From: Deltaproteobacteria bacterium
GTDB taxonomy: Bacteria > Desulfobacterota > Deferrimicrobia > Deferrimicrobiales > Deferrimicrobiaceae
Reading direction: 5' to 3'
Assembly (NCBI GenBank): GCA_016219515.1
Contig: JACRMU010000065.1
Location: forward strand, 1,705-65,704
Length of the DNA: 64,000 nucleotides
The notes below the pieces were generated by a model. The model saw only the letters and a list, made by a program, of their open reading frames with translations. It was not told where the DNA came from and did no database searches. The position numbers and the translations under genes are program-made. Below, piece after piece: positions 37,371-51,639 of this stretch. Each line of letters begins with the position of its first letter. Positions within the stretch are counted from its first letter, which is position 1.

Positions 37371-38381
37371 CTAACAGATCCGCGGAAGCTGGTCCCCCAC
37401 GGGGTAGTCCACCGCGCGCAGGCCGCCGATGACGGTTTTCATGAGAACCCCGGGCGACCCGTCCGTCACCTCGCCGATCACCGTCGCATTTCGCCCGTAC
37501 CGTGTCTTTCTCAGGGTTTCGACGATGGGATCCGCGGATTTTCCGTCGACGATCAGGAGCGCCTTCCCTTCGTTGGCAAGATAGATCGGGTCGAAGCCCA
37601 GGATTTCGCAGATGCCGCGGACCGCCTCCGCCACGGGCAGCCGGCTCTCGTCGAGGACGATCCGGACGCGGGAGGATTCGGCCATCTCGTTCAGGGAGAC
37701 GCCCACGCCGCCGCGGGTCGGATCGCGCATGAACCGCACGGAGCCCCCGAAAACGGAGAGGACGTCGAGCAGCATCGAGGAGAGGGGCGCCACGTCCGAG
37801 AGGATCTCCGCGGCGAGCTCCAGCCGGTTCCTCGCGATCAGCACCGCCGCCTGGTGGTCCCCCATCGTGCCGGTGAGGACGATGCGGTCTCCCGGCCGGA
37901 CGTTTTCCGGCGCGGGTCGCCAGCCGTCGCTTGCGATCCCCACGCCCGACGTGGTGATGAAGATCCCGTCGGCATTTCCCTTTTCCACGACCTTGGTGTC
38001 GCCGCATGCGACCACCACGTTCCCTTCCTTCGCCGCGGCTTTCATGGAGTCCAGGATCGTTTCCAGCGTTGCGACGGGGAACCCTTCCTCCAGGATGAGG
38101 GAGCAGGAGATTGCAACCGGCCTCGCGCCGCAGACGGAGAGGTCGTTCAGCGTCCCGCAGACCGCGAGCCGGCCGATGTCCCCGCCGGGAAAGATCGCGG
38201 GGGTGACCACGTAGCCGTCGGTGGTGAAGGCGATCTCTCCGTCGAGCCGGCCCAGAAGCCCCGAGTCGAACAGCGGGGAGAGGATCGGGTTCTCGAACCG
38301 CTTCGCGATGATCTTCCGGATCAGGTCGCGGCTTTTCTTCCCACCCTCCCCGTGGGAAAGGAGGATCTTCTCACCAGGCAT
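37371..38381 (-). CDS. hypE: [NiFe]-hydrogenase maturation protein HypE
   Basis: AIR-synthase-like fold with the invariant C-terminal PRIC motif (…GDQLPRIC). Confidence 0.9.
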   Translation of the reverse strand: MPGEKILLSHGEGGKKSRDLIRKIIAKRFENPILSPLFDSGLLGRLDGEIAFTTDGYVVTPAIFPGGDIGRLAVCGTLNDLSVCGARPVAISCSLILEEGFPVATLETILDSMKAAAKEGNVVVACGDTKVVEKGNADGIFITTSGVGIASDGWRPAPENVRPGDRIVLTGTMGDHQAAVLIARNRLELAAEILSDVAPLSSMLLDVLSVFGGSVRFMRDPTRGGVGVSLNEMAESSRVRIVLDESRLPVAEAVRGICEILGFDPIYLANEGKALLIVDGKSADPIVETLRKTRYGRNATVIGEVTDGSPGVLMKTVIGGLRAVDYPVGDQLPRIC

Positions 38382-39479
38382 CTATTGCACTCCATACTTG
38401 TAATAGGCGGCGCAGGTGCCTTCGCTCGATACCATGCAGGGGCCGTACGGCTCCTCGGGGGTGCACGCCTTCCCGAACAGCGGGCATTCGCGCGGCGTGA
38501 TCTTTCCCTTGAGGACGTCCCCGCACCGGCAGGCCGTTTTCTCTTCCGAGAAGGGGATCTCGACGCCGAACTTCTTCTGTGCGTCGAAGCCCGCGTACGC
38601 ATCCGCGATCGCAAGCCCCGTGCGGGGGAGCACTCCGATCCCGCGCCAGCCGATGTCGCATTCCCGGAAGACCTTGGCGAGGACTTCCAGTGCCTTCCGG
38701 TTTCCGGAAGGGGTCGCGACCCGGGAGTATTCGTTCTCGACCGTCGCTACCCCCTGCTTTTTCTGGCGGAGCAGCAGGTAGATCCCGTAGAGGATGTCGA
38801 GCGGCTCGAATCCGGCCACGACGCACGGGACGCCGAACTTCCTCGCCAGGGGAAGGTAGGCGTCGGACCCGATGATCGTGCTGACGTGCGCGGGGCAGAG
38901 GAACCCTTCGATCCGCACCTCCGGGTCGGAGGCCAGGACCTCCATCGCGAGCGGAATAGTCCGGACGGAGGAGAGAACGGAGAAGTTTTCGATCTTCCGT
39001 TCGGCCGCCGAAAGGATTGCGCCGGCGATCGAAGGCGCGGTCGTCTCGAACCCCACGCCCAGGAACACCACTTCCTTTTCCGGGTTGCCGGCGGCGATCT
39101 CCACCGCGTCCAGGGGCGAATAGAGGATCCGCACGTCGATTCCCTGTCCCCGCTCCTTTTCCAGCGAAGAGATCCTGCCGGGAACCCGCAGCATGTCGCC
39201 GAAAGTGGCGATGACCGTGTCGGGACGCTTCCCGAGGCCGATGGCGGCGTCGATGTAGCCGTCGGGGGTGACGCAGACGGGGCAGCCGGGGCCCGAGATC
39301 AACGTGATCGCCCCTTCCAGGAGGGAGCGGATCCCCGCGCGCGCGATGCTGACCGTATGGGTCCCGCAGACCTCCATCAGCCGCATGGGCGGCCGGTCGC
39401 CCCAGAGGGTCCGGATCGAGTCGACGACGCCCTTGGCAAGCCCCGGGTCGCGGAACTCGTCAATGTATTTCAGCTGCAT
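38382..39479 (-). CDS. hypD: [NiFe]-hydrogenase maturation protein HypD
   Basis: Conserved CGxH (EVCGTHT), GPGCPVC and FxPxHVS (CPAHVS) motifs. Start at MQLKYIDEFRD (the track ORF is N-extended). Overlaps hypC. Confidence 0.9.
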   Translation of the reverse strand: MQLKYIDEFRDPGLAKGVVDSIRTLWGDRPPMRLMEVCGTHTVSIARAGIRSLLEGAITLISGPGCPVCVTPDGYIDAAIGLGKRPDTVIATFGDMLRVPGRISSLEKERGQGIDVRILYSPLDAVEIAAGNPEKEVVFLGVGFETTAPSIAGAILSAAERKIENFSVLSSVRTIPLAMEVLASDPEVRIEGFLCPAHVSTIIGSDAYLPLARKFGVPCVVAGFEPLDILYGIYLLLRQKKQGVATVENEYSRVATPSGNRKALEVLAKVFRECDIGWRGIGVLPRTGLAIADAYAGFDAQKKFGVEIPFSEEKTACRCGDVLKGKITPRECPLFGKACTPEEPYGPCMVSSEGTCAAYYKYGVQ

Positions 39480-39687
39480 CCGATATTTCCCGAAGGTATT
39501 GGAGCGTCCTCTGCGCCTCCTCCGGGGAGAGCTTCGAGATGGCGAAGCCGGCATGGAGGATGACCCAGTCTCCTTCCCGGACCTCTTCGAGGAGCAGGAC
39601 GGAGATCTCCCGGCGCGCTCCCCCTACCTCCACGGTCGCCGATGTTCCCGCGACCGACATCACCCTTGCGGGCACCCCCAGGCACAT
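39460..39687 (-). CDS. hypC: [NiFe]-hydrogenase maturation chaperone HypC
   Basis: Begins with the MCLGVPA signature. 75 aa. Confidence 0.85.
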   Translation of the reverse strand: MCLGVPARVMSVAGTSATVEVGGARREISVLLLEEVREGDWVILHAGFAISKLSPEEAQRTLQYLREISDAAEIH

Positions 39688-39691
39688 CGCC

Positions 39692-42052
39692 CTACCCCCC
39701 TGATATCGTTTGCGCTGCGAAATACGCCTGTCCCAGCGAGATCCCGCCGTCGTTGGCGGGGACCTCCCGGTGGATCAGCGTCTTGAGCTTTCTTTGCCGG
39801 AACCCGGTGAGAAGCTTCCTTAACAGATAGACGTTCTGGAAGACCCCCCCCGAGAGAAGCACGTGCCCGGCCCCCGTCCCTTCCGCGAGCCGGACCGTTA
39901 CCTCGAGAACTATCTCCGCCACAGTGTCGTGGAACTTCCGCGCGATGACCGGCGCGGGTGTCCCGGCGCTTGCGTCGGAAACGACTCCCGCGATCAGGCC
40001 CTTCCAGTCTATCCCAAGACGCCCGGCTCCGTCGCGGATCGTGTAGGGATAGGTCCCCGTCCCCCGTCCCTTTCGAATGCAACCTTCCAGCAGCATGGCG
40101 GCCTGCCCTTCGTAGCTGGCCTTGCGGCAGATGCCCGCTAGCGCGGAAGCGGCGTCGAAGAGGCGTCCGCAGCTGGAGGACGGCACAACGTTCACCTTCT
40201 TCGAGATCGCGTCGACGAGCAGGCCGATCCGTTCGGGGCCGATATCGGGAAAACGGGAGGCGGCGATCCTTCCCGCCTCCGCGGGTCCGAACGTATCGTG
40301 GAGGAACCCCACCGCGGTCCTCCACGGCTCCCGGACGGCGGCGTCGCCCCCCTGCAGCGGGAAGTAGTCGAAGGCGGCTGCCCGTTTCATCTCCATTCCG
40401 TCGATGGCGAAAAATTCACCGCCCCAGATTGCGCCGTCTTCCCCGTAGCCGGTCCCGTCGAAGGAGACGCCCACCGCCTTTCCGGAGAATCCGGACTCCG
40501 CCAGCAGGGCGTAGAGATGCGCCTTGTGATGCTGGAGGGAGAGGATGCGCCCGGCGCCGATATTTTCCGCGAAGGAGGTCGTGAAGTAGGCGGGATGCGT
40601 ATCGCGGCAGACCGCGGATAGCTCGGCGTCGAGGAACCGCCGGAAAAAATCGAAGGTCTCCTTGTAGAATTCCCGCACGGGAATCTGGTCCAGGTCGCCC
40701 AGGTGCTGGGACAGGTAGGCGAACCCCTCCTTGAGGATGCAGAAAGTGCTTTTCAGTTCACCTCCCAGGCCCGCCACGCAAAGTTTCTTAACCCCAGGGA
40801 CGTTCCTGATCGTTAAGTAATTCGGGGGGATCTCAAGCTTACTCGCGTTTTCAGGAACGTCCCCGGTCTTTAGCAGCACAGGGGCGGGGACGAAGCCGCG
40901 GGCGCGGCGGAGGGGGTAGATCTTCCCGCCGATGCTCCGGACCACGGTGTCGTCGCTTCGCTGCACGATCTCCCGGTTGTGGAGGAGAAAGAGGTCCGCG
41001 ATGCCGGAGAGGCGTGCGATGGCTTCATCGTTGCCGGTGGCGATCGGCTCGTCGGTCGCGTTCCCGCTGGTCATGACGAGCGGGAGGTCCAGCCGGTCGA
41101 AGATCAGGCGGTGCAGCGGGGTGTAAGGGAGAAAGAGCCCGAGGTTCGCAAGCCCCGGCGCCACCGACGGCGCCAGCCGGGCGTTCCCCAGGGTTTCCAC
41201 CAAAAGGACGGGCGCGGACGGAGAGGAGAGGATCGCCTCGTCGTCTTTCGAAAGGCGCGCAAGGGAGCGGGCGGCGGCGAGGTCCGTCACCATCACCGCG
41301 AACGGCTTCTCCTCCCGGTGCTTCCGCTCGCGGAGTTTGCGGACCGCTTCTTCGTTCGTCGCGTCCGCGGCCAGGTGGAAGCCGCCGAGCCCCCGGACGG
41401 CGACGATCTTTCCGGACCGGAGGGCATCGGACACGCACCCCACCGGGTCATCCGTCGCGACCGGTTTCCCCTCCCGCGTCGCCACGGACAGCGACGGCCC
41501 GCAGTCCGGGCAGGCGTTCGGCTCCGCGTGGAACCGCCGGTCCCCGGGGTCCTCGTATTCCCTCCGGCACCGCGTGCAGAGAGGGAAAACCGACATGGAA
41601 GTGTTCTCGCGGTCGTAGGGGAGCCTGCCGACGATCGTGAACCGGGGGCCGCAGCCGGTGCAGTTGATGAACGGATAACCGAAGCGCCGGTCGTTCGGGT
41701 CGGACAGCTCCCGGAGGCAGGCGGGGCACAAGGCGATGTCCGGCGGGATCGTGGAGAGGGCGGTCCCCGACTGCTCGCTCTTCTCGATGGCGAAGCCGGA
41801 GAAGCCTTCGCGCGCCACGCGCTGTTCCGTGATGCGCGCCACGCGGGCGGCGGGCGGCAGCTCTTCGCGGAACAGCTCCCGGAAGCGGCGGATCGCCTCC
41901 GGATCCCCTTCGAGGTGGACGGTCACGCTCCCCGGAGTGTTCGTCACATACCCGCGCAGGCCGCTGCGGACGGCGATCCGGTAGATGAAGGGGCGGAACC
42001 CCACCCCCTGGACCACACCGCGAATCGTAAGACGCAAGGCGACGGCCGGCAT
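39692..42052 (-). CDS. hypF: carbamoyltransferase HypF
   Basis: Acylphosphatase domain (VQGVGFRPF), two Zn-finger pairs (CPACLREL…CTGCGPRF; CTRCRREY…CPDCGP), YrdC and Kae1-like domains. True start ATG 42052 (MPAVALRLTIRG). The track's 1240-aa ORF continues upstream as an antisense artefact over hypB/hypA. Confidence 0.85.
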   Translation of the reverse strand: MPAVALRLTIRGVVQGVGFRPFIYRIAVRSGLRGYVTNTPGSVTVHLEGDPEAIRRFRELFREELPPAARVARITEQRVAREGFSGFAIEKSEQSGTALSTIPPDIALCPACLRELSDPNDRRFGYPFINCTGCGPRFTIVGRLPYDRENTSMSVFPLCTRCRREYEDPGDRRFHAEPNACPDCGPSLSVATREGKPVATDDPVGCVSDALRSGKIVAVRGLGGFHLAADATNEEAVRKLRERKHREEKPFAVMVTDLAAARSLARLSKDDEAILSSPSAPVLLVETLGNARLAPSVAPGLANLGLFLPYTPLHRLIFDRLDLPLVMTSGNATDEPIATGNDEAIARLSGIADLFLLHNREIVQRSDDTVVRSIGGKIYPLRRARGFVPAPVLLKTGDVPENASKLEIPPNYLTIRNVPGVKKLCVAGLGGELKSTFCILKEGFAYLSQHLGDLDQIPVREFYKETFDFFRRFLDAELSAVCRDTHPAYFTTSFAENIGAGRILSLQHHKAHLYALLAESGFSGKAVGVSFDGTGYGEDGAIWGGEFFAIDGMEMKRAAAFDYFPLQGGDAAVREPWRTAVGFLHDTFGPAEAGRIAASRFPDIGPERIGLLVDAISKKVNVVPSSSCGRLFDAASALAGICRKASYEGQAAMLLEGCIRKGRGTGTYPYTIRDGAGRLGIDWKGLIAGVVSDASAGTPAPVIARKFHDTVAEIVLEVTVRLAEGTGAGHVLLSGGVFQNVYLLRKLLTGFRQRKLKTLIHREVPANDGGISLGQAYFAAQTISGG

Positions 42053-42123
42053 CGGACTTCCCAGTGTACCAGAAGTGCCCCGGCTGCCGCCGATGCCGTC
42101 GCGTGTGTTATATAATCCAAGAG

Positions 42124-42278
42124 CCCGGTGCGGACTCAGGGCGCAGCGGGGGGCTTCCCTGGAGCGGCGTATGGAGCGGAGGGAGAGATTGCGTCGAAGC
42201 GGAATCCGCAGTGAGCGGACGAAGGTCGCGAACGTAGCTCCGGGGAAGTCCCCCCGCGAGCCCCGAGTCCGCACCGGG
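42124..42278. repeat. Long imperfect inverted repeat (about 36-nt arms: 42124-42159 and 42242-42278) enclosing about 80 nt with four GAGCGG/AGCGGA motifs; candidate structured 5' leader/regulatory RNA between hypF and hypB
   Basis: Left arm cccggtgcggactcagggcgcagcggggggcttccc pairs with right arm ggggaagtccccccgcgagccccgagtccgcacc(ggg) with about 3 mismatches or indels. TATAAT at 42109-42114 lies just upstream. Confidence 0.45.
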
Positions 42279-42286
42279 AAAACGCC

Positions 42287-42943
42287 ATGAAGGTGGACAT
42301 CGAGCGGCAGATCCAGCAGTCGGCGGAGGAGACCGCGGGGAAGATCCGCGACCTGCTCGCCGCCCGGAAGGTTTTCGCCGTGAACCTCATCTCCTCGCCG
42401 GGGTCCGGGAAGACCACGCTGATCGAGAGCGCGATCGAGGCGCTTCGCGGGAAGAAGCGGGTGTCGGTAGTCGAGGGGGACATCGAGACCGACATCGACG
42501 CGGCGCGGATCCGCAAGCACGGCGTCCAGGTCCATCAGATCAACACCCGTTCCTCCTGCCATGTCCCGCCGTTCCTCCTGCTGTCGGCCCTGGATCACAT
42601 CGACCTGGACGCGACGGACCTTCTCTTCGTGGAGAACGTGGGGAACCTGGTGTGCCCCGCCGAGGTGCCGCTCGGGGAAGACCTGCGCGTCGTCGCGCTG
42701 AGCGTGGCGGAAGGGGACGAGAAGCCGCTCAAGTATCCGCTGGTCTTCAAGACATCCGACATTCTGGTCATCACGAAGACCGATCTGCTCCCTTACGTCA
42801 AGTTCGACCCCGGCCGGGTGAAAGCCGCCGCCCGGGCGGTCAACCCCCGCGTGGAGATCTTCGAGGTCTCGGCGGTCACGGGATCGGGGATTTCCTCCTT
42901 CCTGGAAAGAATCGAAGAACTCTGCGGGCGGAAAACCGGGTAG
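42287..42943 (+). CDS. hypB: hydrogenase nickel-incorporation GTPase HypB
   Basis: G1 motif SSPGSGKTTL, ENVGNLVCP metal-binding motif, G4 TKTDL. Confidence 0.85.
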   Translation: MKVDIERQIQQSAEETAGKIRDLLAARKVFAVNLISSPGSGKTTLIESAIEALRGKKRVSVVEGDIETDIDAARIRKHGVQVHQINTRSSCHVPPFLLLSALDHIDLDATDLLFVENVGNLVCPAEVPLGEDLRVVALSVAEGDEKPLKYPLVFKTSDILVITKTDLLPYVKFDPGRVKAAARAVNPRVEIFEVSAVTGSGISSFLERIEELCGRKTG

Positions 42944-42947
42944 TGCC

Positions 42948-43310
42948 ATGCACGAACTGGGGATCGCGAGGGACATTCTGGACATCGCGGTTGCCGAAGC
43001 GGAGAAACACGGGGGCTGCCGGATCACCCGCGTGGATCTCGAAGTGGGGGTCCTGCGTGGGGTCGTCCCCGAGAACCTGGCGTTCCTGTTCGGCCACGTC
43101 GCCATGGGGACGATCGCCGAAGGGGCCCGCCTTGCAATAGAGGAGCAGCCGGCCCGCGTGGCGTGCGAAGCGTGCGGCCCGGTCGAGGCCCGCGGTTTCA
43201 CCATCGCATGCCCCGCCTGCGGGAGCCCCGCCGTGAAGGTCGAGGGGGGAGACGCCCTCCGCATCCTTTCCATCGACATCGACGATTCCCTGCCGGCGCG
43301 GGAGGCTTGA
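42948..43310 (+). CDS. hypA: hydrogenase nickel-insertion protein HypA
   Basis: N-terminal MHE nickel-binding signature and two CxxC pairs (CEACG…CPACG). Confidence 0.8.
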   Translation: MHELGIARDILDIAVAEAEKHGGCRITRVDLEVGVLRGVVPENLAFLFGHVAMGTIAEGARLAIEEQPARVACEACGPVEARGFTIACPACGSPAVKVEGGDALRILSIDIDDSLPAREA

Positions 43311-47177: not shown

Positions 47178-48521
<1,344 letters not shown>

Positions 48522-48925: not shown

Positions 48926-49903
48926 ATGAAGCGAATTCTCATCCCCGTATTGGTATTCGTTGCCGCAATGAGCGTCTCGACGTGGTCGCATGCCACGACC
49001 CTGCTGGGAGACGCCGCGCTTTATAATGTGTTCGTTTTCGACGACATGAACGTCGGGTCGGACACCCAGGGCCGCGTCGCGGTCGGCGGGAATTTTACCG
49101 CTGCAAGTTACAGCATCGGCACCCTTTCATCGCCTGCACAATACAGCCTTGTCACCGGGGGGAACGTTGTTTATGGCCCCGGCTCCATTCGCCATGGCGG
49201 TATATATTCCGGAGGGAACGTCACATTAAAAAACTATTCCGTTGCAGGCGACGTAGTCGCGAGGGGTACGGTGACTACGATAAATGGCGGGACGGTCACC
49301 GGAACCGTCCAGGCGGGTTCGTCTCTTGCCGGTCCCGTAAATTTCACGGCCGCCGAGATCTATCTCAAGGGGGTATCCTACGATTTATCGCATGGGGTAA
49401 TGAACGGCACCACGACGGTCTCCCCCTGGCATGCAATCACTCTGTCCGGCAGCAATGCCGTGAATTCGTTTTACCTGAGTGGCACCGACCTTGCGAATGC
49501 GTCAAGTCTTACATTCAATTTCGCCTCCGATAAGATCGGCATCGTCAACGTTTCCGGGACAGACTGCGATTTCAGCGGGTTCGGATTTTTCGGCGGGGGC
49601 CTGGCCGAAAATATCCTTTTCAATTTTTATGAAGCGGAGAACCTCACCATCGGCAGCATCGGCGTAAGAGGAAGCATTCTGGCGCCTTACGCGGACATTA
49701 CGTTCAACTCCGGAGTGGTCCATGGCAGCGTGATCGCGGAATCGATCGTCGGGGGCGGACAATTCAATCAGAATCTATTCGACCATGAAATTCCCGGCGG
49801 CAGCCAGCCGGTGCCGGAGCCGGCCACGATGCTCCTTTTCGGCTCAGGGCTGGCCGGGCTTGCCGCGACGCGGCTCAGGAAGGGTGGTAAGATGCCTCGT
49901 TAA
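48926..49903 (+). CDS. choice-of-anchor A domain protein with C-terminal PEP-CTERM sorting signal, secreted
   Basis: Signal peptide. LGDAALYNVFVFDDMNVGSDTQGRVAVGGN matches the choice-of-anchor A N-terminal signature. C-terminus VPEPATMLLFGSGLAGLAATRLRKGGK is PEP + TM + basic tail. Confidence 0.8.
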   Translation: MKRILIPVLVFVAAMSVSTWSHATTLLGDAALYNVFVFDDMNVGSDTQGRVAVGGNFTAASYSIGTLSSPAQYSLVTGGNVVYGPGSIRHGGIYSGGNVTLKNYSVAGDVVARGTVTTINGGTVTGTVQAGSSLAGPVNFTAAEIYLKGVSYDLSHGVMNGTTTVSPWHAITLSGSNAVNSFYLSGTDLANASSLTFNFASDKIGIVNVSGTDCDFSGFGFFGGGLAENILFNFYEAENLTIGSIGVRGSILAPYADITFNSGVVHGSVIAESIVGGGQFNQNLFDHEIPGGSQPVPEPATMLLFGSGLAGLAATRLRKGGKMPR

Positions 49904-49922
49904 TTGTTACCGGAGGGGGGCG

Positions 49923-50255
49923 ATGACCACCATCTCACTTCTGTTCTGTTCCAACATCTTCATGACCTTCGCCTGGTACGGGCACCTGAAAGAGCTCAAC
50001 ACGAAACCGTTGATGCTCGCCATCCTGGCGAGCTGGGGGATCGCCTTCTTCGAGTACGTCCTTCAGGTCCCCGCCAACCGCATCGGCTACCAAAGCTTCA
50101 CCTTGCCGCAGCTCAAGGTGATCCAGGAAGTGATCACGATGGTCGTCTTCGCCGGGTTCGTCACGTTCTACATGCGGCAACCGCTGAAGCTGGACTACCT
50201 GTGGGGCGCCCTCTGCCTGGTCGGGGCCGCCTACTTCATGTTCCGGTCGGCGTAA
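49923..50255 (+). CDS. DMT-superfamily small membrane protein (DUF486 family)
   Basis: LLFCSNIFMTFAWYGHLK is the DUF486 signature. Four TM helices. RBS ggagggggg. Confidence 0.75.
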   Translation: MTTISLLFCSNIFMTFAWYGHLKELNTKPLMLAILASWGIAFFEYVLQVPANRIGYQSFTLPQLKVIQEVITMVVFAGFVTFYMRQPLKLDYLWGALCLVGAAYFMFRSA

Positions 50256-50262
50256 CGACAGC

Positions 50263-50761
50263 TTATTTGTTCGGGCAATCCTTGCACGGTCCGTGAGGGC
50301 CGTCCCCGTGATGCCGGTGCTCATGCCCTCCACCGCCCATCATCGATTCCATGTGCTTCAGGTGGGACTCCTGGAGGCCGTCCACCATTCGGAAGTGCTC
50401 GATGGCCGCCTTCCGGAACTCCGCCGGGTCGGTGATCCCCGCCATCTTCTTCTCGTGGTCCCGCAGCGCGGCGACGCTTGACGCTTTTCCGGACCTCCTC
50501 CATGTGCTTCTTCATCCCTTCCTTCATGGAAGGCATGCCGTGGCCGTCGTGCCGATGGCCGCCTTTGCAGTCCTTTCCTTCGGGACAACCGGACTTGCAG
50601 CACTCGCAATCGTACTTGCAGCAGGGTTTCGCCCCGGACTTCTGCATTTCCTGGCACGGGGGGCCCCCCGCCGCCGAAATTGCGTTCCCCCGGTCGGCAA
50701 GCAGGAAAAAGGCGATCAACGCGCAGGCGACGATCGCCGCCGGAATCCGGAACGTCTTCAT
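50263..50761 (-). pseudogene. secreted Cys-rich / His-Met-rich putative metal-binding protein, reading frame broken by an apparent 1-nt insertion in an A4 run (plus-strand T4 at 50485-50488)
   Basis: Frame A (50761 downward): signal peptide, then CQEMQKSGAKPCCKYDCECCKSGCPEGKDCKGGHRHDGHGMPSMKEGMKKHMEEVRK with high GC3, then junk. Shifted frame: …SSVAALRDHEKKMAGITDPAEFRKAAIEHFRMVDGLQESHLKHMESMMGGGGHEHRHHGDGPHGPCKDCPNK with high GC3 to the stop at 50263. Track ORFs 50321-50761 and 50263-50445 are the two halves. Confidence 0.5.
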
Positions 50762-51006
50762 CTTGAGATCCTCCCTTCATGTCGATGTCGTCGCAGCCGT
50801 TCGGGAACGGACCTGCCGAAAAACCGCAGGGGGTATTATCTCATGCCTGTCCCGAGTCATTGAACAAGCTTTCCAGTGCCGCAGGCGGAAAGCTGAAGAT
50901 ATAATGGGGGCGGGTTGGTCCAACGCCAGGTGATTTACGATACGGGGCACCGGGCTCCCGCGCGGTCGGCGGCGCCGGGGAGACCCGGGCGGAAGAGGGG
51001 GGGAGC

Positions 51007-51639
51007 ATGCTCGTAGGCAGGCGGATGACGAAGGACCCGAAGACGGTATCGCCGGACGACACGCTGGCGCACGCCGCGGACATCATGCGGCGGTTGCGGT
51101 TCAACCACCTTCCCGTGGTGGAGGGAGGGAAGCTGGTGGGGATCCTCACCGATACCGACCTGCGGAACATTTCGCTGACGGGCGAGCCGGCGCAGGGCGG
51201 AACGATGCCTTCCGACCGCCGGGTGCGGGAGGTGATGAAAACGGATGTCTGGTCCCTCACGCCGGAGGACGCGGTGGAGGATGCGCTCCTGATCATCCGC
51301 CGGAAGAAGTTCGGCGCCCTTCCGGTCCTCTCGGGGGACAAGCTGGTCGGCATCATCACGAAGATCGACCTGCTGAACGCCGTGATCGACGTCCTGAACC
51401 TCGAAGAGGTGGGCGTCCGGATCGAGGTTTCCCTCCCGTGGAACATGAAACGGTTCGAGGAGCTGGTCGGCGTCCTTGAGGGGATGTCGGTCCGTGTCCG
51501 CAGCTGCATGATCACTCCGCGGAAGGGGTCGGACCGGATGGTCGCGCTCCTCCGTCTCGACACGATCGACGGCCCGAAGGTGATCGAGGGGCTGCGCGCC
51601 AGGAACTTCGATGTGCCGGGGACGGCCGACTTCTCGTAA
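51007..51639 (+). CDS. CBS-domain pair protein with C-terminal ACT-like domain
   Basis: Two CBS motifs (…HLPVVEGGKLVGILTDTDL… and …LPVLSGDKLVGIITKIDLL…). Confidence 0.75.
   Translation: MLVGRRMTKDPKTVSPDDTLAHAADIMRRLRFNHLPVVEGGKLVGILTDTDLRNISLTGEPAQGGTMPSDRRVREVMKTDVWSLTPEDAVEDALLIIRRKKFGALPVLSGDKLVGIITKIDLLNAVIDVLNLEEVGVRIEVSLPWNMKRFEELVGVLEGMSVRVRSCMITPRKGSDRMVALLRLDTIDGPKVIEGLRARNFDVPGTADFS

What the first reader, a model, noticed from the sequence alone, without database searches (positions are those of the whole stretch)
50263..50761. Frameshifted gene for a secreted Cys-rich plus His/Met-rich (metal-binding-like) protein; shift at an A4 homopolymer
Two overlapping track ORFs are halves of one roughly 165-aa protein. 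The N-terminal half (signal peptide, CQEMQKSGAKPCCKYDCECCKSGCPEGKDCKGGHRHDGHG) and the C-terminal half (…HLKHMESMMGGGGHEHRHHGDGPHGPCKDCPNK) both have strong GC3 coding bias but sit in frames offset by one. Removing one A from the AAAA run (minus-strand sense; plus 50485-50488) joins them. This could be a sequencing error at the homopolymer, a phase-variable or slippage site, or a recent pseudogene. The composition suggests periplasmic copper/heavy-metal binding. It is convergent with the DMT gene.
Basis: seen in the sequence. Interest (0 to 1): 0.5.

Follow-up and report, generated by a model that had tools for sequence, protein, structure and literature searches.

The report
Small secreted gene broken by duplication
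The two overlapping ORFs are one gene for a small exported Cys/His/Met-rich protein of uncultured Deferrimicrobiota; a 7-base tandem duplication, not an extra A, broke its reading frame, so this is an ordinary recent gene-inactivating lesion in an uncharacterised gene family.

Summary
The core observation holds. ORFs 50761-50321 and 50445-50263 (minus strand) are two halves of one gene. The proposed lesion is wrong. Relatives have the same AAAA run and read in frame. The window instead carries an exact 7-bp tandem duplication, AAGCGTC|AAGCGTC (plus 50473-50486). Deleting one copy gives ...EEVRKSVAALRDHEKKM..., identical to the family consensus (163 aa).

More than 60 full-length homologues and 79 of 80 related loci are uninterrupted at this site. 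That includes relatives about 90% or more identical in DNA. The downstream half still shows purifying selection (pN/pS 0.16-0.27), so the lesion is recent or an artefact. The downstream ORF is NCBI MBI5342708.1, from a metagenome-assembled genome.

The family is narrow (42 clusters among 1.84 billion representatives) and confined to Deferrimicrobiota/MBNT15-type MAGs. It always lies between a CBS-domain gene and the GDH/PEP-CTERM genes. It has no Pfam, NCBIfam, PDB or Rfam match.

The predicted architecture is a signal peptide, a variable Cys-rich/His-rich stretch, a very confidently predicted two-helix hairpin with invariant His/Met, and a His/Cys tail. A periplasmic metal-binding role is plausible but inferred only.

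The neighbouring glutamate dehydrogenase gene also carries a premature TAG. Interest is low.

The parts
50263..50761 (-). Whole disrupted gene. ATG is at 50761-50759 and the TAA stop at 50265-50263. After removal of one 7-mer it encodes a 163-aa protein.
   Evidence: The repaired translation aligns end to end with P0001, P0002, P0003 and P0100.
50473..50486 (-). The lesion: an exact 7-bp tandem duplication. It reads AAGCGTC AAGCGTC on the coding strand and GACGCTT GACGCTT on the plus strand. It falls after codon 92, inside helix 1 of the conserved core.
   Evidence: DNA alignments with L001, L002, L017 and L080 show a 7-nt gap in all of them exactly here. The period-7 tract is exactly 14 nt. 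The frame HMM switches at 50476/50477. The 14-mer is absent from all 80 related loci.
50321..50761 (-). Upstream ORF (146 aa). Codons 1-92 (50761-50486) are authentic. The last 54 codons are out-of-frame read-through to the TGA at 50323-50321.
   Evidence: This exact product is not in the protein collection.
50263..50445 (-). Downstream ORF (60 aa), which is the authentic C-terminal part. Its frame is open from 50511. It is identical to NCBI MBI5342708.1 (HZB63_05250, 'MAG: hypothetical protein [Deltaproteobacteria bacterium]', contig 69,286 nt). Its ATG is the conserved internal Met104, not a real start.
50770..50775 (-). Shine-Dalgarno-like GGGAGG, 8 nt upstream of the ATG. The corresponding column block (A/G)GGAG is conserved in the orthologues.
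   Evidence: Read from the sequence. Conserved columns appear in alignment A8.
50675..50761 (-). Signal-peptide-like N-terminus (residues 1-29). It has a basic n-region (K2, R5), a hydrophobic helix at residues 8-26, and A-I-S|A.
   Evidence: AF2 predicts a helix at 8-26. The same n/h/c layout is present in all homologues. No dedicated signal-peptide predictor was available.
50534..50656 (-). Variable Cys-rich (C36-C65) and His-rich (H69, H71, H74) segment, predicted disordered. Its length and Cys count vary across the family, with 0-15 Cys per protein.
50326..50533 (-). Conserved two-helix hairpin core (repaired residues 77-143; helices 77-105 and 110-143). It is interrupted by the duplication. 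Invariant residues are M83, H86, L97, F113, R114, K115, H120, R122, M123, H131 and H134.
   Evidence: Block-mean pLDDT is 90-98. Invariant columns come from A3. The profile of this core finds only 42 clusters in 1.84e9 representatives.
50266..50325 (-). His-rich tail (HEHRHHGDGPHG) with a C-terminal C-x2-C (PCKDCP).
50835..50905 (.). Conserved part of the intergenic region shared with the divergent CBS gene. ATTATATC (50905-50898) reads as TATAAT on the plus strand. GGCACTGGAAAGCTTG lies at 50880-50865. A -10-like TGAGATAAT ends at 50835. An inverted repeat AGCTTTCC-N12-GGAAAGCT lies at 50867-50894.
   Evidence: Invariant columns in 10 orthologous intergenic regions. The consensus promoter scan found nothing and there is no Rfam hit. 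Its function is not tested.

Best explanation
This is one gene of a small, uncharacterised family specific to Deferrimicrobiota (MBNT15). In this metagenome-assembled genome it carries a recent 7-bp tandem duplication (AAGCGTC x2, plus 50473-50486).

The duplication shifts the frame after codon 92, in the middle of helix 1 of the only strongly conserved domain. Translation from the normal start would give the signal peptide, the Cys/His-rich stretch, 16 residues of helix 1 and then 54 nonsense residues. The conserved hairpin and the His/Cys tail are lost, so the allele is most likely non-functional. The duplication most likely arose by replication slippage or misalignment (inferred).

The intact protein is most likely exported by Sec to the periplasm (inferred). 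There it probably binds soft or borderline metal ions such as Cu(I), Zn or Ni. It would do so through a His/Met cluster on an antiparallel helical hairpin and through flexible Cys- and His-rich tails. That would make it a metal buffer or metallochaperone (inferred from composition and conservation only).

Shown: one gene, the 7-bp duplication, its uniqueness to this sequence, conserved synteny, the narrow family and the helical-hairpin prediction. Inferred: that the duplication is real rather than an assembly artefact, loss of function, export and metal binding.
For: (1) Orthologue DNA (L001, L002, L017, L080) lacks exactly 7 nt that repeat the neighbouring 7 nt. All of these keep the A4 run.
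(2) Removing one copy gives RKSVAALR, the consensus of 62 homologues with no indel at that site.
(3) 79 of 80 related loci have one uninterrupted tblastn HSP across the site. Only the window is split into two frames.
(4) The original frame downstream is still open for 71 codons. It differs from close relatives mostly synonymously (pN/pS 0.27 versus L001 and 0.16 versus L080), which points to a recent event.
(5) The frame scan found no other frameshift in 64 kb, so the assembly is not generally error-prone.
(6) The source is a MAG. If it was assembled from k-mers, the junction sequence must have occurred in reads, and 7-bp duplications are not a typical sequencing-error class (inference).
(7) Family features: synteny aconitase - CBS - gene - (PEP-CTERM) - GDH - Fic - PPDK in every long contig. 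The hairpin has pLDDT above 90. On average 21% of residues are Cys, His or Met. Distant members carry long Cys-rich repeats or a CxxCH motif.
Against: No reads could be inspected, so an assembly or consensus artefact cannot be excluded. Nor can a minority variant that was fixed in the consensus.

A second lesion 3.2 kb away (TAG in GDH) could mean real gene decay. It could equally mean a locally poor consensus.

Confidence: 0.72

Rival explanations
1. Assembly or consensus artefact. The organism has a single AAGCGTC copy and an intact gene, and the extra 7 nt were introduced during metagenome assembly, polishing or binning.
For: The sequence comes from a MAG. A second unexpected lesion, a TAG in the highly conserved GDH gene, lies 3.2 kb away. 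The downstream half looks fully functional.
Against: The frame scan finds no other frameshift in 64 kb. All other syntenic genes have orthologue-like lengths. A 7-bp exact duplication is not a known systematic sequencing-error type, and k-mer assemblers need the junction to be present in reads (inference).
Confidence: 0.2
2. One reading: a one-base insertion in the A4 homopolymer, arising from a sequencing error or slippage, is the lesion.
For: Deleting one A restores an open frame of 165 aa (this version was used as the query).
Against: All close orthologues have the same AAAA and are in frame. Their alignment gap is 7 nt, not 1 nt. The one-A repair creates a 2-residue insertion (K-ASS-V) absent from 62 homologues.
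Confidence: 0.02
3. The shift is functional. Either the gene is expressed by programmed +1 ribosomal frameshifting at CGG-AAA-A, or the heptamer copy number acts as a reversible on/off (phase-variation) switch.
For: A +1 slip of tRNA-Lys on AAA-A is physically possible, and a GGAGGAGG stretch lies 5 nt upstream. A two-copy tandem can revert precisely by slippage.
Against: The shift is not conserved. 79 of 80 loci are in frame with one copy, and the 14-mer occurs only in the window. The AAAA and GGAGG context is present in in-frame orthologues, so it did not evolve for frameshifting. Two repeat units is far below typical contingency loci. A slip product would carry a 2-residue insertion in the helix.
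Confidence: 0.03
4. Two genuine small genes: an N-terminal secreted Cys-rich peptide and a separate 60-aa His-rich protein, as in the NCBI annotation.
For: NCBI annotates the 60-aa ORF as a protein.
Against: The 60-aa ORF starts at a conserved internal Met in the middle of the hairpin and has no signal peptide. All homologues are single proteins. The tail of the upstream ORF has no coding signal in its frame.
Confidence: 0.01
5. Footprint of a mobile element: a 7-bp target-site duplication left after an insertion sequence excised.
For: Exact direct duplication with no flanking microhomology.
Against: No element remnant lies between the copies. Bacterial IS excision that leaves both target copies is rare, and 7 bp is not a common IS target-duplication length (general knowledge, not tested here).
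Confidence: 0.02

Closest known systems
Unnamed 'hypothetical protein' family of Deferrimicrobiota/MBNT15 MAGs (e.g. P0001, P0002, P0100; NCBI entries named 'Candidatus Deferrimicrobiaceae bacterium hypothetical protein')
   Same: Colinear over the full length, with up to 82% identity. Same core motif, same genomic position between the CBS-domain gene and the GDH/PEP-CTERM genes, and the same conserved upstream region.
   Different: The window copy has the 7-bp duplication and therefore a broken frame. It also has two substitutions at conserved positions, Cys50->Tyr and Glu105->Ala.
CpxP/Spy/ZraP periplasmic helical-hairpin proteins (Pfam LTXXQ / Metal_resist)
   Same: Small exported proteins built on a long antiparallel helical hairpin. 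From memory, ZraP has His/Gly-rich termini (HGGHGM-like) and binds zinc. The present family has GHxHGGHGM before the hairpin.
   Different: No sequence match to these Pfam families or to their PDB entries. They are not among the top fold hits. No LTXXQ motifs are present.
SilE/PcoE periplasmic His/Met-rich silver/copper-binding proteins
   Same: Small periplasmic proteins rich in His and Met with i/i+3 and i/i+4 spacing on helices. Examples here are M83-x2-H86-M87 and H131-x2-H134-M135-x2-M138. The comparison with SilE motifs is from memory.
   Different: No NCBIfam or Pfam hit. The present core is predicted to be a stable hairpin rather than disordered. It has additional Cys-rich segments.
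Encapsulated ferritin (EncFtn) two-helix hairpins
   Same: These are the best Foldseek hits. They are two-helix hairpins with Glu/His metal ligands.
   Different: E-values of 0.75 or worse and 8-13% identity. EncFtn proteins are cytoplasmic cargo without signal peptides (general knowledge). The resemblance is the generic hairpin fold.
Frameshift pseudogenes created by short tandem duplications (slipped-strand or replication misalignment mutations)
   Same: An exact tandem copy of a short unit, with a net +1 frame shift. It is absent from close relatives, and the downstream frame is still intact.
   Different: Nothing unusual. There are only two copies, so it is not a microsatellite-type contingency locus.

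Membership tests
Deferrimicrobiota secreted helical-hairpin Cys/His/Met-rich protein family (unnamed) | Full-length colinear similarity, including the core motif GMKxHMEEVRK-VAALR-HEKK-EG-TDP-EFRKAA-EHFRM-DDLQESH-KHMESM | tested here: met
   E=5e-85 to 1e-21 against 62 proteins.
Deferrimicrobiota secreted helical-hairpin Cys/His/Met-rich protein family (unnamed) | Conserved genomic position (aconitase - CBS - gene - GDH ...) | tested here: met
   The same order appears in the window and in L001, L075-L077, L079 and L080.
Deferrimicrobiota secreted helical-hairpin Cys/His/Met-rich protein family (unnamed) | Single uninterrupted reading frame | tested here: not met
   A 7-bp duplication at 50473-50486 splits the gene. 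79 of 80 other loci are uninterrupted.
CpxP/Spy/ZraP (Pfam LTXXQ PF07813, Metal_resist PF13801) | Significant match to the family HMM or to solved members | tested here: not met
   No Pfam hit at E<=10 for the window protein and none at E<=1 for 10 distant members. The profile search against PDB sequences returned no such chain.
CpxP/Spy/ZraP (Pfam LTXXQ PF07813, Metal_resist PF13801) | Periplasmic helical-hairpin fold | tested here: inconclusive
SilE/PcoE metal-binding proteins | Match to the NCBIfam or Pfam models of the family | tested here: not met
   No family found at E<=10 in NCBIfam or Pfam.
Bacterial metallothionein (Pfam Metallothio_Pro) | Match to the family HMM | tested here: not met
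   No Pfam hit. The Cys-rich segment varies in length and is absent in some members.
Any metal-binding protein | Demonstrated metal binding | not testable with these tools
   Only composition is available (10 Cys, 13 His and 10 Met in 134 mature residues), together with conservation of His/Met in the hairpin.
Programmed +1 frameshift genes (prfB type) | Frameshift site conserved among orthologues | tested here: not met
   All orthologues are in frame.
Simple-sequence contingency (phase-variable) loci | Multi-copy repeat tract whose copy number varies among relatives | tested here: not met
   Two copies here and one copy in relatives. Tandem Repeats Finder reports nothing, and the 14-mer is absent from 80 loci.

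The most novel reading that the evidence does not exclude
The intact family would be a previously undescribed type of periplasmic metal-handling protein restricted to the iron-reducing candidate phylum Deferrimicrobiota. A helical hairpin would carry a His/Met cluster, flanked by metallothionein-like Cys/His tails, with a CxxCH haem motif in some members. It would be co-regulated with a divergent CBS-domain gene through a strictly conserved intergenic motif. The window allele would then be a natural knock-out segregating in the population.
Probability: 0.35. Interest if true: 0.4.

Novelty: new member of a known kind. Interest (0 to 1): 0.2.

Why it matters
The main value is for annotation. 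The public record calls only the 60-aa tail a protein. The correct description is a single gene, of a family without any Pfam or NCBIfam model, disrupted by a 7-bp duplication.

The case also shows that the simplest frame repair (drop one base in a homopolymer) can be wrong, and that orthologue DNA settles the question.

Biologically the lesion is ordinary. Together with the nonsense codon in the neighbouring GDH gene, it may flag either gene decay in this population or local consensus problems in the MAG.

The family itself is a modest lead for periplasmic metal handling in uncultured iron-reducing bacteria.

Tried and rejected
- **Known-family searches.** Pfam and NCBIfam scans of the repaired protein and of 10 distant members gave no family.
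- **PDB sequence search.** The profile search against PDB sequences gave only chance hits (best E 0.053, CdiA).
- **Rfam.** A scan of 49800-51200 found nothing.
- **Promoter/terminator and repeat scans.** The consensus promoter/terminator scan found nothing. Tandem Repeats Finder found nothing because the tract is too short.
- **Metagenome search.** An exact-pattern scan of metagenome contigs for the site with 0-7 inserted bases returned 0 hits. Even L001 was not recovered, so that collection evidently does not hold it. Loci were then obtained through the protein profile.
- **Source contig.** Look-ups of the window's own two ORF products in the gene-position index found nothing. The source contig could therefore not be fetched, and no independent assembly of the same strain was found.
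- **False alarms.** Other frame oddities flagged by my frame scan (39.5 kb and 42-43.3 kb) turned out to be normal gene borders in what look like hyp genes.
- **Rejected readings.** I rejected the A4 single-base insertion, programmed frameshifting, phase variation, two real genes and an IS-excision footprint. The reasons are given under the rival explanations.

Full report
**Observation**

On the minus strand an ATG at 50761, preceded by GGGAGG, opens a 146-aa ORF that ends at 50321. A second ORF of 60 aa (50445-50263) lies in the +1 frame, and that frame is already open from 50511. A simple frame HMM, trained on long ORFs of the window, places the switch of coding signal at 50476/50477. It found no other intragenic frame switch in the 64 kb. 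The other places it flagged are ordinary gene borders. So the two-halves observation is real.

**What the lesion is**

The best are 79-82% identical over 100% of the query.

In the alignment every homologue reads ...HMEEVRK-SVAALR.HEKKM.... The one-A repair gives ...RKASSVAALR..., which has two extra residues.

DNA of the closest relatives settles the matter. I fetched L001 (P0002), L002 (P0001), L017 and L080 (P0100) and aligned them. All read CCGGAAAAGCGTCGC(C/T/G), with the same four A's. The window reads CCGGAA-AAGCGTC-AAGCGTC-GCC. The only indel is a 7-nt gap in the relatives, and the extra 7 nt exactly copy the adjacent 7 nt.

On the plus strand the duplication is GACGCTTGACGCTT at 50473-50486. 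The period-7 tract is exactly 14 nt, with no flanking microhomology. Removing one copy gives a 163-aa protein whose junction, RKSVAALR, is the family consensus.

A tblastn of the conserved core against all 80 related loci gave one uninterrupted HSP across the site in 79 of them. Only the window is split between two frames, and the 14-mer occurs nowhere else. An exact 7+7 tandem is not improbable in itself, with 4 in the window and about 4 expected. The orthologue comparison is what carries the weight.

**Real or artefact, old or recent**

The 60-aa ORF is identical to NCBI MBI5342708.1, 'MAG: hypothetical protein HZB63_05250 [Deltaproteobacteria bacterium]', on a 69-kb contig. The window therefore comes from a metagenome-assembled genome. 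Reads are not available here.

Several points argue against an artefact:
- The rest of the window shows no other frameshift.
- All other genes of the syntenic block have orthologue-like lengths.
- A 7-bp exact duplication is not a typical sequencing error.

One point favours caution. The glutamate dehydrogenase gene 3.2 kb away has TAG where three orthologues have GAG (codon 21, 47238-47240).

The lesion is young in either case. The original frame downstream is open for all 71 codons. It differs from L001 and L080 mainly by synonymous changes (pN/pS 0.27 and 0.16). Two window-specific replacements at conserved positions (Cys50->Tyr, Glu105->Ala) are compatible with slightly relaxed constraint. 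They are too few to argue from.

**What the gene is**

The family has no Pfam or NCBIfam model and no sequence relative in the PDB. A profile of the core, searched against 1.84 billion representative proteins, found only 42 clusters. Genome hits are all MAGs labelled Deferrimicrobiaceae, Deferrimicrobium, 'Deltaproteobacteria bacterium' or similar. Deferrimicrobiota is the former MBNT15, an uncultured candidate phylum of predicted iron reducers (PMC9386147; taxonomy).

In every long contig the gene sits in the same place. The order is TerC - MntP - aconitase - CBS-domain gene (divergent) - this gene - (PEP-CTERM adhesin) - GDH - Fic - PPDK-like. The window has the same order.

AlphaFold2 with the 63-sequence alignment predicts four parts:
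- an N-terminal hydrophobic helix (residues 8-26, signal-peptide-like);
- a disordered stretch (27-76);
- two long helices (77-105 and 110-143) with block-mean pLDDT of 90-98;
- a disordered tail.

The disordered parts are Cys-rich and His-rich, and they vary widely between members (0-15 Cys). The hairpin carries the invariant residues M83, H86, L97, F113, R114, K115, H120, R122, M123, H131 and H134. Distant members add long CxC/CDC repeats or a CxxCH motif.

Fold searches return only generic helical hairpins.

The duplication falls after residue 92, inside helix 1, so the conserved domain is destroyed.

**Most likely function**

This part is inferred. In an antiparallel hairpin the N-terminal end of helix 1 (M83, H86, M87) faces the C-terminal end of helix 2 (H131, H134, M135, M138). 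H100 faces H120.

The arrangement, the signal peptide and the Cys/His-rich tails suggest an exported metal-binding protein, acting as a buffer or chaperone for Cu(I), Zn or Ni. It resembles SilE/PcoE, ZraP or metallothioneins in style. It is not a member of any of those families, because their models do not match.

I put about 0.5 on metal binding. The structural statement (one gene, 7-bp duplication) is near certain. I put about 0.7-0.75 on the duplication being a real allele rather than an artefact.

**Regulatory surroundings**

The 245-bp region between this gene and the divergent CBS gene contains columns that are invariant in 10 orthologues as far apart as 55% protein identity:
- ATTATATC (50905-50898), which reads as TATAAT on the CBS strand;
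- GGCAC-GGAAA-CTT (50880-50866);
- a -10-like (G/T)A(T/A)AAT (50840-50835) about 70 nt upstream of the ATG.

In the window the second block is one arm of an 8-N12-8 inverted repeat. No Rfam family matches, and the consensus promoter scan is silent. I did not pursue this further.

**Verdict**

The phenomenon is ordinary, a recent inactivating tandem duplication or, less likely, an assembly artefact. The gene family is uncharacterised and of modest interest.

Noticed in passing
window 47178-48521 (+), stop at 47238-47240: The glutamate dehydrogenase gene has an in-frame TAG at codon 21 where orthologues L001, L075 and L077 have GAG (Glu). The rest of the gene is intact. A GTG at 47259 would give a 420-aa product lacking the conserved N-terminus. 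This is a second inactivating lesion within 3.2 kb of the duplication.
   Followed up: partly
window 49923-50255 (+): The DMT_6/DUF486 gene (Pfam E=5e-47) convergent with the broken gene is absent from the same position in the close relatives L001, L017 and L080. In those, the gene is followed directly by the PEP-CTERM adhesin gene. This is a roughly 335-bp gene-sized indel between near relatives.
   Followed up: partly
window 50835-50905; alignment A8: Strictly conserved intergenic motifs lie between the CBS gene and this gene in 10 orthologues: ATTATATC, GGCAC-GGAAA-CTT and a -10-like element. The window also has an inverted repeat AGCTTTCC-N12-GGAAAGCT at 50867-50894. This may be a shared operator or promoter region, and it has no Rfam match.
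   Followed up: partly
window 50486-50761 versus 50263-50472; L001, L002: The gene is a mosaic. Against L001, synonymous divergence is 0.32 in codons 1-92 but 0.09 in codons 93-163, and the upstream intergenic region looks nearly identical in the alignment. The N-terminal Cys-rich part resembles L002/P0001 instead. This suggests recombination or hypervariability of the Cys-rich segment.
   Followed up: no
window 50612-50614 (codon 50) and 50440-50442 (codon 105): There are two window-specific replacements at conserved positions. One is TGC->TAC (Cys50->Tyr in the CCKCDCECC motif). The other is GAG->GCG (Glu105->Ala, at a position at least 90% conserved in the family).
   Followed up: no
proteins P0051, P0064, P0067, P0069, P0093: Some family members carry an extra N-terminal module with a CxxCH (haem c-like) motif (P0051, P0064). 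Others carry long Cys-rich stretches such as CGDCPKH..GGCDCGMHRGGC, C-terminal in P0067 and P0069 and N-terminal in P0093. The hairpin core therefore combines with different redox or metal-type modules.
   Followed up: no
L073 about 850-965; protein P0098: In at least one other lineage only the second helix of the core is left as a short ORF (MSKMEALKSKDDAAAFRAASLEHSKLLTDLQESHLKHMEGMMGGK). This suggests the gene also decays or is truncated elsewhere.
   Followed up: partly
window 37374-43310: This looks like a hydrogenase-maturation cluster, judged from the translations by eye and not checked with Pfam. The apparent order is hypE, hypD, hypC and hypF on the minus strand, then hypB and hypA on the plus strand, directly upstream of the PPDK-like gene. 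Long antisense ORFs overlap it, as is typical of 65% GC DNA.
   Followed up: no
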